64,000 nucleotides of DNA from the NCBI GenBank assembly GCA_000165345.1, contig CM000429.1, positions 160,001-224,000 on the forward strand, written 5' to 3'. A program made the translations under genes and the position numbers. Below, one piece after another: positions 60,545 through 61,453 of the stretch (within the stretch, counting starts at the first letter, position 1; each line of letters begins with the position of its first letter). The notes under the pieces are model-generated. The model saw only the letters and a program-made list of their open reading frames with translations, searched no databases and was not told the origin of the DNA.

Positions 60545-61453
60545 TTAGTCATCATCTGGAAGTCCAAAGTTATTATTGATTTCTTTTTCAGAAATTCCAG
60601 GCATTTTTTTTTTGATCCATTGTCTTAGACTACAGACATTATCTTCCCAAATAGATAATTCTTGGTTAGTATTTGATAAATTTTCATTCAGGATTTTAGG
60701 ATTATCTTTGATTATAATGTTGATATTATCTAACCTAATAACAAGTTCTTTCTGTTCTTTCAGAATTTGATCTAATTCTTGACTTTTTTTTTCTCTGATT
60801 TGATGCTCAGGAGAATCAGTTTCTTTAGAATCTTTGATCATTTTTTCAAGTGATTTAATTTGTTCTTTGGAATCTTGGATTGAATTTCTGTTTCAATATA
60901 ATAAGATAAAATTCAAGTATAAGTGAGTTATATATGTTTAATAACGTAAGTATACAATGATAAAAATATTAATAAGAATTTGAGATATTCTAATTTTTGT
61001 GATTAAACTTACTTTAAATATTCCAACCTGTTTTCTTTGCTAAATTTAGCAGCACTAGGAAGAGCCCAAAAAATATTAAGAGATCCAATTTTGTCACTTA
61101 CAACCAAAGAATCGTCTACAAGACTTTGCAAAACGTCTTTGACAGTTTGTTCAATTATTCCACATTTCTTTCCTAATTTTTCTATTTCTTTTAAATTAAA
61201 ACATTCTTTCTATAATGAAATTATTAAAGGAAATAAATATTTGTAATTCAAAAATTATATTCACTTTTTATTGCTTTTCTCAATAATTTTCAAACTGATA
61301 AAACTTACTTTTTCGTATAGAGAGTTCAATAATCTAATGAATTGTTCGGAAAATAGAAATTTTAGTTACATAATTTTTACAAATTCTTTCATTTAAACAA
61401 TCATAAGCTTACCTTGAACGTTTCTCTTCCATAGAAACTCCTCTTTTAGACAT
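60545..61453 (-). CDS. MND1: Meiotic nuclear division protein 1 (Mnd1), about 201 aa, modelled as four exons: complement(join(60545..60887,61013..61209,61309..61333,61413..61453)).
   Basis: ATG at 61453..61451. The donors are CAAG|GTAAGC, AAAAA|GTAAGT and TTTAAA|GTAAGT. The acceptors are cattag|, cattatag| and ttgaaacag|. The introns are 79, 99 and 125 nt. The spliced protein reads [74 protein letters not shown]...[22 protein letters not shown]. This aligns along its length with metazoan/fungal Mnd1 ([76 protein letters not shown]...RKFGFEENKIDRTFGIPEDF). The ORF track shows only the last exon (60545..60841). Confidence 0.8.

What the first reader, a model, noticed from the sequence alone, without database searches (positions are those of the whole stretch)
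60545..61453. Four-exon MND1 (meiotic recombination) gene hidden behind a 98-aa ORF
The ORF track shows only a 98-aa minus-strand ORF (60545..60841). Following the GTAAGT donors (+ strand acttac at 61007, 61303 and 61407) and the matching AG acceptors yields a phase-consistent 4-exon gene. Its product aligns end to end with Mnd1: it has the N-terminal MSK..EEKR..LL start, the [14 protein letters not shown]...IG..N.FWA.PS winged-helix core and the C-terminal FG.PxD tail. Mnd1 works with Hop2 in meiotic strand invasion. A parasite with an obligate sexual cycle should carry it, but automated ORF-based annotation would miss it because of the 25-nt and 41-nt exons.
Basis: partly seen in the sequence, partly recalled or inferred. 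Interest (0 to 1): 0.7.

Follow-up and report, generated by a model that had tools for sequence, protein, structure and literature searches.

The report
Cryptosporidium MND1 gene, already annotated

Summary
On the minus strand, exons 61453-61413 (41 nt), 61333-61309 (25 nt), 61209-61013 (197 nt) and 60887-60545 (343 nt, stop included) are joined by three GT..AG introns of 79, 99 and 125 nt. They give a 201-aa protein. That protein matches Pfam Mnd1 HTH (E=2.3e-23, full model) and LZ3wCH above threshold, and it aligns end to end with the crystallised Giardia Mnd1.

Four other Cryptosporidium species have the same exon lengths with freely varying introns, and substitutions fall mainly at third codon positions.

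The gene is not hidden. The window is C. parvum chromosome 1. The identical 201-aa protein is already deposited from four C. parvum assemblies, one of them naming it "Meiotic nuclear division protein 1". It is cgd1_840, named MND1 in Tandel et al. 2019, where it is silent in sporozoites and induced at 48 h together with HOP2 (cgd2_510). Malik et al. 2008 already listed Mnd1 as present in Cryptosporidium.

Verdict: a correct reading of a known gene, of low interest. Side observations: a DSS1/SEM1-like gene lies next door, and a conserved promoter motif block sits upstream.

The parts
61413..61453 (-). MND1 exon 1 (41 nt; ATG at 61453-61451; encodes [13 protein letters not shown] + 2 nt)
   Evidence: The independent Mnd1 HMM hits frame 0 at 61453-61412 = HMM positions 2-15. 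The N-terminus aligns with Giardia Mnd1 MAPKGTSLDEKKERLL.
61334..61412 (-). Intron 1 (79 nt, GTAAGC...TTAG, 22% GC)
   Evidence: The position is conserved in 4 other Cryptosporidium species while the length varies from 67 to 138 nt.
61309..61333 (-). MND1 exon 2 (25-nt micro-exon; encodes part of LLNSLYEKK)
   Evidence: It is needed for a full-length 60/60 match to Pfam PF03962 starting at residue 15. It is 25 nt in all five species.
61210..61308 (-). Intron 2 (99 nt, GTAAGT...ATAG, 17% GC)
   Evidence: The best alternative, shifted by 4 nt (61304..61206), scores 5 bits lower and lacks a GTAAGT donor.
61013..61209 (-). MND1 exon 3 (197 nt; winged-helix core [11 protein letters not shown]...[12 protein letters not shown] and the start of the coiled coil)
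   Evidence: Independent HMM domain E=1.2e-31, HMM positions 23-93, at 61212-61000. Pfam Mnd1 HTH.
60888..61012 (-). Intron 3 (125 nt, GTAAGT...ACAG, 18% GC)
   Evidence: Length is 63-125 nt in orthologues at the same position. Intron identity to other species is 0.27-0.61, against 0.61-0.87 for the flanking exon 4.
60545..60887 (-). MND1 exon 4 (343 nt including stop TAA 60547-60545; coiled coil + LZ3wCH). It contains the 98-aa ORF seen on the ORF track.
   Evidence: Independent HMM positions 90-199, E=1.2e-13, at 60886-60551. Pfam LZ3wCH PF18517 28.1 bits against cut-off 26.1. The stop is conserved across the genus.
61564..61603 (-). Probable promoter block, -150 to -111 from the ATG: ATACCGGTAT - AAT - TGCATGCATGCA - AATAT - ATTACGTCAT (inferred, not shown to be functional)
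   Evidence: ACCGGTAT has 8 matches in the window against 0.23 expected. TGCATGC has 27 against 2.3. GCATGCATGC lies upstream of MND1 in all 5 species; the CCGG and ACGTCAT elements are conserved in parvum, chipmunk genotype I and canis. TGCATGCA is the published AP2_1 ApiAP2 site (PMC3734150).

Best explanation
This is the Cryptosporidium parvum MND1 gene (cgd1_840, chromosome 1). It is a protein-coding gene with four exons and three short spliceosomal GT-AG introns, and it encodes a 201-aa Mnd1 protein. Shown here: the splice model, the family membership, conservation under purifying selection, and (from published data) a transcript that is absent in sporozoites and induced at 48 h, when cultures turn sexual, together with HOP2. 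Inferred from what is established for yeast, mouse and Giardia Hop2-Mnd1: the N-terminal winged-helix domain and three coiled-coil segments pair with Hop2 (cgd2_510) into an elongated heterodimer. That heterodimer binds DNA through the juxtaposed winged helices and stabilises and stimulates Dmc1/Rad51 filaments for strand invasion, here during the post-fertilisation meiosis that produces the four sporozoites of the oocyst. Transcription is probably driven by the conserved TGCATGCATGCA (ApiAP2-type) element about 130 nt upstream; this step is inferred.
For: The spliced 201-aa product was reproduced. Pfam Mnd1 HTH PF03962 scores E=2.3e-23 at 82.6 bits against a cut-off of 23.5, covering model positions 1-60/60; LZ3wCH PF18517 scores 28.1 bits against 26.1. 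phmmer against the PDB finds only Giardia Mnd1 4Y66_A, E=9.7e-19, residues 1-196 against 1-194. There are 103 homologues, all carrying PF03962. The alignment with 25 Mnd1 proteins has 17 invariant columns. Exon lengths are 41/25/197/343 in C. muris, C. ryanae, C. canis and chipmunk genotype I, with introns of 63-138 nt. Exons are more conserved than introns, and substitutions by codon position run from 15/6/47 to 60/29/109. The AF2 model (pLDDT 83.7) shows a winged helix, three long helices and a capping helix, and its best PDB fold match is 4Y66_C of the Giardia Hop2-Mnd1 complex, E=4.6e-10. An identical protein and gene span are already annotated. [quoted passage not shown] HOP2 cgd2_510 is in the same cluster.
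Against: I could not inspect any RNA-seq read that spans the three junctions, so splicing rests on comparative and profile evidence plus existing annotations, which may themselves be partly homology-based. Expression is low (log2 about 4 at 48 h), and I did not find the gene in the held (truncated) part of the sorted-female differential-expression table. No genetic or biochemical test of Mnd1 exists for Cryptosporidium in the papers I searched. The genus lacks the C-terminal (F)DY(I/V)E tail and has IWEDN where other eukaryotes have RWTDN. The consequences of these differences are unknown.
Confidence: 0.93

Rival explanations
1. The gene is MND1 but the real transcript uses a different splice pattern. 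Examples are intron 2 shifted by 4 nt (61304..61206), or an extra or alternative small intron, giving a 196-206 aa isoform.
For: Several alternative ORF-preserving GT-AG models score within 5-15 bits of the best model under the independent HMM. No junction-spanning reads were examined.
Against: It uses the consensus GTAAG donors. It is the only one whose exon lengths are reproduced in four other species. It equals the deposited annotation in four assemblies.
Confidence: 0.03
2. The locus is a decaying relic or pseudogene, or only the 98-aa ORF is expressed as an unspliced product.
For: The ORF track alone shows only a 98-aa ORF. Transcript levels are low.
Against: The spliced frame is intact in five species spanning the genus, down to 61% aa identity. 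Substitutions are strongly biased to third positions and exon lengths are exactly conserved. The winged-helix domain is encoded upstream of the 98-aa ORF and scores E=1e-31. Expression is stage-regulated and parallels HOP2.
Confidence: 0.01
3. Cryptosporidium Mnd1 is not purely meiotic. It also acts in non-meiotic double-strand-break repair with Rad51, as reported for Hop2-Mnd1 in some other eukaryotes (my own knowledge).
For: In a microarray study, cgd1_840 was among the top 15 genes up-regulated in oocysts 0.5 h after UV (1.99-fold, back to 1.03-fold at 5 h; PMC3542205).
Against: RNA-seq puts the transcript at the detection floor in sporozoites and very low at 24 h, the asexual phase. A two-fold change on a near-background microarray probe is weak evidence. 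The gene was an unnamed 'conserved hypothetical' in that study.
Confidence: 0.08

Closest known systems
Cryptosporidium parvum cgd1_840 / CPHLJ_1g840, 'Meiotic nuclear division protein 1' (NCBI QOY43544.1, WKS75982.1, WRK30476.1, KAL5370322.1)
   Same: Identical: 201/201 aa and an identical 909-nt gene span (window 60545-61453 = CP029780.1 gene in L001 5001-5909).
   Different: Nothing. Some deposits still call it 'hypothetical' or 'uncharacterized' protein.
Mnd1 of other Cryptosporidium species (C. hominis, meleagridis, tyzzeri 98%; chipmunk genotype I 92%; canis 87%; xiaoi 76%; felis 75%; ryanae 74%; muris 61%)
   Same: Same length (201 aa, except the 220-aa C. felis model). Same four-exon structure with 41/25/197/343-nt exons in the four species examined. 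Same neighbours in the species where they were visible: RPS19e and the small acidic gene upstream, the SF1 helicase downstream.
   Different: Intron lengths and sequences diverge freely. In C. ryanae the called downstream neighbour is a myosin gene, so the local gene order differs.
Giardia lamblia Mnd1 in the Hop2-Mnd1 crystal structure (PDB 4Y66)
   Same: End-to-end collinear alignment (E=1e-18). Same domain order: winged helix, three coiled-coil segments, capping helix. It is the best fold match, E=4.6e-10.
   Different: Only 25% identity in the structural alignment. Global TM is only 0.48 because a monomer model of an elongated coiled coil does not reproduce the helix trajectories. No Cryptosporidium Hop2 complex was modelled.
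Canonical eukaryotic Mnd1 (oomycete, fungal, plant, animal; Pfam PF03962 + PF18517)
   Same: 31-39% identity over the full length. The invariant residues L28 K29 E30 E32 G39 K46 Q50 L52-V53-D54-D55 V58 G64 W70 R119 W168 N171 are all present.
   Different: The Cryptosporidium proteins stop at ...GLPDDD and lack the terminal (F)DY(I/V)E. They have (I/V)W(E/D)DN (RWEDN in C. muris) in place of the RWTDN found in nearly all the others.

Membership tests
Mnd1 (meiotic nuclear division protein 1) family | N-terminal Mnd1-type winged-helix (HTH) domain, Pfam PF03962, above the gathering score | tested here: met
   82.6 bits against cut-off 23.5, E=2.3e-23, residues 15-73 against model positions 1-60/60.
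Mnd1 (meiotic nuclear division protein 1) family | C-terminal leucine zipper 3 with capping helix (LZ3wCH, PF18517) | tested here: met
   28.1 bits against cut-off 26.1, E=2.1e-6, residues 165-200. This is marginal but above threshold, and the precomputed Pfam column lists PF18517 for P0001.
Mnd1 (meiotic nuclear division protein 1) family | About 200 aa, collinear end to end with an experimentally characterised Mnd1 | tested here: met
   Giardia Mnd1 4Y66_A is the only PDB sequence hit, E=9.7e-19, 1-196 against 1-194. The 26-sequence alignment has 17 invariant columns.
Mnd1 (meiotic nuclear division protein 1) family | Fold: winged helix followed by a three-segment coiled coil and a capping helix | tested here: met
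   AF2 pLDDT 83.7. Elements: H8-22, H28-37, H42-54, E59-63, E66-70, H73-110, H114-148, H151-182, H188-195. Top Foldseek PDB hit is 4Y66_C, E=4.6e-10, though TM is only 0.48.
Mnd1 (meiotic nuclear division protein 1) family | Forms a heterodimer with Hop2 | not testable with these tools
   A HOP2 gene exists (cgd2_510, 'Homologous-pairing protein 2') and falls in the same expression cluster. No complex prediction or binding assay was available.
Mnd1 (meiotic nuclear division protein 1) family | Stimulates Dmc1/Rad51-mediated strand invasion; required for meiotic DSB repair | not testable with these tools
   This needs biochemistry or genetics. No Cryptosporidium MND1 mutant turned up in the literature searches.
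Mnd1 (meiotic nuclear division protein 1) family | Expression tied to sexual or meiotic stages | tested here: met
   Published bulk RNA-seq shows the floor value in sporozoites, low levels at 24 h and induction at 48 h, co-clustered with HOP2 (PMC6877471 suppl. 5). This is indirect: it comes from bulk culture, and I did not see sorted-cell data for this gene.
Spliceosomal (U2-type GT-AG) introns | GT donor and AG acceptor, positions conserved among orthologues, lengths not constrained to multiples of three, lower conservation than exons | tested here: met
   Donors are GTAAGC, GTAAGT and GTAAGT; acceptors are TTAG, ATAG and ACAG. Positions are identical in 5 species and lengths range from 63 to 138 nt. 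Intron identity is 0.27-0.78 against 0.61-0.95 for exons. Actual splicing was not observed here.
DSS1/SEM1 family (neighbouring 81-aa gene, side observation) | Pfam PF05160 above the gathering score | tested here: not met
   21.9 bits against cut-off 32.2, E=1.9e-4, residues 17-70 against model positions 10-59/60. It is suggestive (acidic, with W-rich WDENWD/WDDEDVDDEF motifs) but below threshold, so I do not file it as a member.

The most novel reading that the evidence does not exclude
The most novel reading still open concerns regulation, not the gene. The conserved block upstream of MND1 (ATACCGGTAT + TGCATGCATGCA + ATTACGTCAT, window 61603-61564) recurs as CCGGTAT+TGCATGC pairs in two other intergenic regions of the window. 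It could be a composite cis-regulatory module that specifies late female or meiotic expression in the C. parvum clade, with the CCGGTA half-site bound by a factor not yet described. A second possibility is that the genus-specific loss of the Mnd1 C-terminal FDYIE tail changes how Hop2-Mnd1 engages Dmc1.
Probability: 0.12. Interest if true: 0.35.

Novelty: already known. Interest (0 to 1): 0.08.

Why it matters
It matters little as a discovery. The gene, its exon structure, its name and its sexual-stage expression are already in public databases and in the literature. Its value is as a positive control: a reader working from raw sequence alone recovered a correct gene model containing 41-nt and 25-nt exons, which shows the approach can find intron-split genes that an ORF list hides. 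Biologically, MND1/HOP2/DMC1 are markers and potential genetic handles for the poorly understood post-fertilisation meiosis of Cryptosporidium. No functional study of Cryptosporidium MND1 turned up in the searches.

Tried and rejected
- NCBIfam scan of the product: no hit, as expected for a library aimed at prokaryotes.
- Supplement of Malik 2008: the held text gives no Cryptosporidium Mnd1 accession. The meaning of the code 'P' in its Table 2 was not recovered, so I cite it only as 'listed as present'.
- Supplements of the AP2-F paper (PMC10233709): no mention of cgd1_840 or Mnd1. Its main text gives no binding motif.
- Literature search for a CCGGTA motif in Cryptosporidium: only irrelevant hits, mostly primers. 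Oberstaller 2013 contains none of the strings CGGTA, ACCGG or TACCG in its main text.
- Pfam on the two ORFs flanking the third CCGGTAT+TGCATGC site (12236-15751 minus strand, 16203-16838 plus strand): no domains, so I could not link them to expression tables.
- Two further ACCGGTAT sites (34467, 58615) lie inside long ORFs and are probably coding coincidences.
- I considered stop-codon readthrough into a remnant 'LYI' after the TAA as a lost FDYIE tail. I rejected it because the downstream sequence is not conserved and the stop is conserved in all five species.
- I considered use of the exon-internal GTAAGT at 61101-61096 as a donor. No such model scores near the top.

Full report
**What is in the sequence**

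The window is AT-rich (29.4% GC). On the minus strand between 61453 and 60545, the mechanical ORF list shows only a 98-aa ORF (60545..60841) and short fragments. The unspliced stretch has stop codons in all three frames.

Joining exons 61453-61413 (41 nt), 61333-61309 (25 nt), 61209-61013 (197 nt) and 60887-60545 (343 nt) removes three GT..AG introns:
- intron 1, 79 nt, GTAAGC...TTAG
- intron 2, 99 nt, GTAAGT...ATAG
- intron 3, 125 nt, GTAAGT...ACAG

This yields a 606-nt open frame and the 201-aa protein [201 protein letters not shown].

The only slip is that the + strand hexamer at 61407 is GCTTAC, not ACTTAC. Introns are 17-22% GC; exons are 24-37% GC.

**Is it Mnd1?**

- Pfam Mnd1 HTH (PF03962) matches residues 15-73 over the whole 60-position model, with E=2.3e-23 and 82.6 bits against a cut-off of 23.5.
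- The C-terminal LZ3wCH domain (PF18517) matches residues 165-200, with 28.1 bits against a cut-off of 26.1.
- The only PDB sequence hit is Mnd1 of the Giardia Hop2-Mnd1 crystal structure (4Y66_A): E=9.7e-19, residues 1-196 against 1-194, and no gaps across any of the three exon junctions in the first 90 residues.
- A database search returned 103 homologues, all carrying PF03962.
- In an alignment with 25 of them, 17 columns are invariant, including the LKE.E, Q.LVDD, G64, W70, W168 and N171 positions.
- An AlphaFold2 model (mean pLDDT 83.7) shows a winged helix (three helices and a beta hairpin), three long helices and a short capping helix.
- Its best PDB fold match is chain C of 4Y66 (E=4.6e-10). 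The global TM-score is only 0.48, as expected for a monomer model of an elongated coiled coil.

**Is the splice model right, independently of existing annotation?**

I built an HMM from 20 non-Cryptosporidium Mnd1 proteins. Against the three-frame translation of the unspliced locus it finds four collinear pieces:

| HMM positions | Window coordinates | Strength |
|---|---|---|
| 2-15 | 61453-61412 | weak |
| 10-37 | 61350-61267 | weak |
| 23-93 | 61212-61000 | E=1.2e-31 |
| 90-199 | 60886-60551 | E=1.2e-13 |

These are the four exons. I then enumerated every GT-AG model from the ATG at 61453 that preserves an ORF, allowing up to four introns of 30-300 nt and requiring at least 150 codons. There are 21,657 such models. 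The runner-up (177.8 bits) shifts intron 2 by 4 nt onto a non-consensus donor.

**Comparative evidence**

The gene DNA of C. muris, C. ryanae, C. canis and chipmunk genotype I was fetched. For each, exactly one GT-AG solution reproduces the deposited protein. In all four the exon lengths are 41/25/197/343 nt, while the introns vary from 63 to 138 nt.

Exons are 61-95% identical to C. parvum without gaps. Introns align at 27-78%. Substitutions by codon position are 15/6/47 (chipmunk), 22/11/94 (canis), 37/19/101 (ryanae) and 60/29/109 (muris). This is the signature of purifying selection on this reading frame. One caveat applies: the orthologue proteins come from annotations that may be homology-guided. 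The splice sites, the open frames and the third-position bias are nevertheless properties of the DNA itself.

**It is already known**

The 909 nt of window 60545-61453 are identical to a called gene on C. parvum chromosome 1 (GCA_031892065.1, CP029780.1; L001 5001-5909), and the same 201-aa product is on record. The exact protein is deposited four times (KAL5370322.1, QOY43544.1, WKS75982.1, WRK30476.1). Its names include 'hypothetical protein CPHLJ_1g840' and 'Meiotic nuclear division protein 1 [Cryptosporidium parvum]'. Orthologues named Mnd1 are annotated in nine other species.

- Malik et al. 2008 (PMC2488364, Table 2) list Mnd1 as present in Cryptosporidium parvum/hominis.
- Tandel et al. 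[quoted passage not shown] The values are -4.84/-4.58/-5.17 in sporozoites (the floor value shared by undetected genes), -0.55/-3.78/-1.38 at 24 h and 3.91/4.31/4.29 at 48 h.
- The partner HOP2 (cgd2_510) is in the same cluster. In the sorted-cell table it is low in the first group of columns and high in the later groups; I did not read that table's column headers.
- The main text of that paper states that DMC1, Spo11, HORMA and HOP2 are preferentially expressed in females and that meiosis follows fertilisation.

The equation cgd1_840 = this locus rests on three things: the shared product name, the chromosome, and the number 840 in the locus tag CPHLJ_1g840. It is a strong inference, not a coordinate match.

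**Mechanism**

Shown: gene structure, family membership, selection, and stage-regulated expression parallel to HOP2.

Inferred from established work on yeast, mouse and Giardia Hop2-Mnd1 (references 51, 52, 112 and 113 of PMC2488364, seen; the 4Y66 structure; my own knowledge): Mnd1 pairs with Hop2 through parallel coiled coils. The two winged-helix domains bind DNA. The complex stabilises Dmc1/Rad51 presynaptic filaments and promotes capture of duplex DNA and strand invasion. In Cryptosporidium this would act in the zygote's meiosis, which yields four sporozoites.

**Differences from canonical Mnd1**

All Cryptosporidium Mnd1 proteins end at GLP(D/N/E/S)(D/E)D and lack the terminal (F)DY(I/V)E found in most other eukaryotes. 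They have (I/V)W(E/D)DN (RWEDN in C. muris) where nearly all the others have RWTDN. The stop codon is conserved in the genus and the sequence after it is not. I cannot say what this means functionally.

**Surroundings**

- Downstream and convergent lies a 994-aa SF1 helicase ORF with AAA_11/AAA_12 domains (57234-60218, + strand).
- Upstream on the same strand is a three-exon, 81-aa acidic protein (62182-62095, 61967-61905, 61817-61723). It resembles DSS1/SEM1 (PF05160, E=1.9e-4) but scores below the Pfam threshold (21.9 against 32.2 bits). It is called as a gene with no Pfam hit on record in the NCBI assembly.
- About 110-150 nt upstream of the MND1 ATG is a block ATACCGGTAT-AAT-TGCATGCATGCA-AATAT-ATTACGTCAT.
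- ACCGGTAT has 8 matches in the window against 0.23 expected; TGCATGC has 27 against 2.3.
- The GCATGCATGC element lies upstream of MND1 in all five species. The other two elements are conserved only in the parvum, chipmunk and canis group.
- TGCATGCA is the known AP2_1 ApiAP2 site (PMC3734150). I found no description of the CCGGTA element.
- The same motif pair also occurs in the convergent 3' intergenic region (60393-60402, 60464-60479; partly conserved) and at 15933-15949.

**Verdict**

The observation and the interpretation are correct. The implied novelty ('hidden', 'annotation would miss it') is not: this is the annotated and named C. parvum MND1 gene, cgd1_840. Novelty is 'already known' and interest is low. 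What remains untested is direct junction evidence, Hop2 binding and the genetic requirement in meiosis.

Noticed in passing
window 61723-62182, minus strand (exons 62182-62095, 61967-61905, 61817-61723): The gene immediately upstream of MND1 encodes an 81-aa very acidic protein (…IDDELEEFDD…WDENWDATGWDDEDVDDEFIKQL…). It resembles DSS1/SEM1, the BRCA2 and proteasome-lid partner: Pfam PF05160 E=1.9e-4, but 21.9 bits is below the 32.2-bit cut-off. The public assembly calls it as a gene with no Pfam hit on record. If it is DSS1, two small intron-split recombination-related genes sit head to tail.
   Followed up: partly
window 61564-61603 (minus strand, -150..-111 from the MND1 ATG): A conserved upstream block ATACCGGTAT / TGCATGCATGCA / ATTACGTCAT. 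ACCGGTAT is about 35-fold over-represented in the window and TGCATGC about 12-fold. GCATGCATGC is present upstream of MND1 in all five Cryptosporidium species examined. The CCGG and ACGTCAT parts are present only in the parvum, chipmunk and canis group. TGCATGCA is the known AP2_1 site; I found no description of the CCGGTA element.
   Followed up: partly
window 60393-60402 and 60464-60479 (3' intergenic region between convergent MND1 and the helicase); also 15933-15949: The same ACCGGTAT + TGCATGC pair occurs between two convergent gene ends, where no promoter is expected. It is partly conserved there in chipmunk genotype I and C. canis, along with a conserved ATCCACAT block. This could mark a promoter for an unannotated antisense or non-coding transcript. 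A third copy sits in a divergent intergenic region near 15.9 kb, between two ORFs without Pfam domains.
   Followed up: partly
window 60545-60575 (C-terminus of Mnd1): All Cryptosporidium Mnd1 proteins stop at …GLPDDD and lack the (F)DY(I/V)E tail present in most other eukaryotes. They have (I/V)W(E/D)DN (RWEDN in C. muris) where nearly all the others have RWTDN. The stop codon is conserved across the genus.
   Followed up: partly
window 57234-60218, plus strand: A 994-aa single-exon ORF, convergent with MND1, is an SF1 helicase with AAA_11 and AAA_12 domains (E=8.5e-52 and 4.9e-59). It is conserved as the downstream neighbour in C. muris, C. canis and chipmunk genotype I.
   Followed up: partly
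window 21201-36974, plus strand: A single uninterrupted ORF of 5257 aa (15.8 kb), an unusually large gene. I did not examine it.
   Followed up: no
literature: PMC3542205, Table of UV-responsive genes: cgd1_840, then listed as 'conserved hypothetical protein', was among the top 15 genes up-regulated in oocysts 0.5 h after UV (1.99-fold). This is a weak hint of a DNA-damage response for a gene that RNA-seq finds silent in sporozoites.
   Followed up: no
window 61096-61101 (minus-strand GTAAGT inside exon 3): A perfect GTAAGT donor-like hexamer lies inside the winged-helix coding exon (codons V-V-S-D). It is not used in any high-scoring model, so it is a potential cryptic donor.
   Followed up: yes
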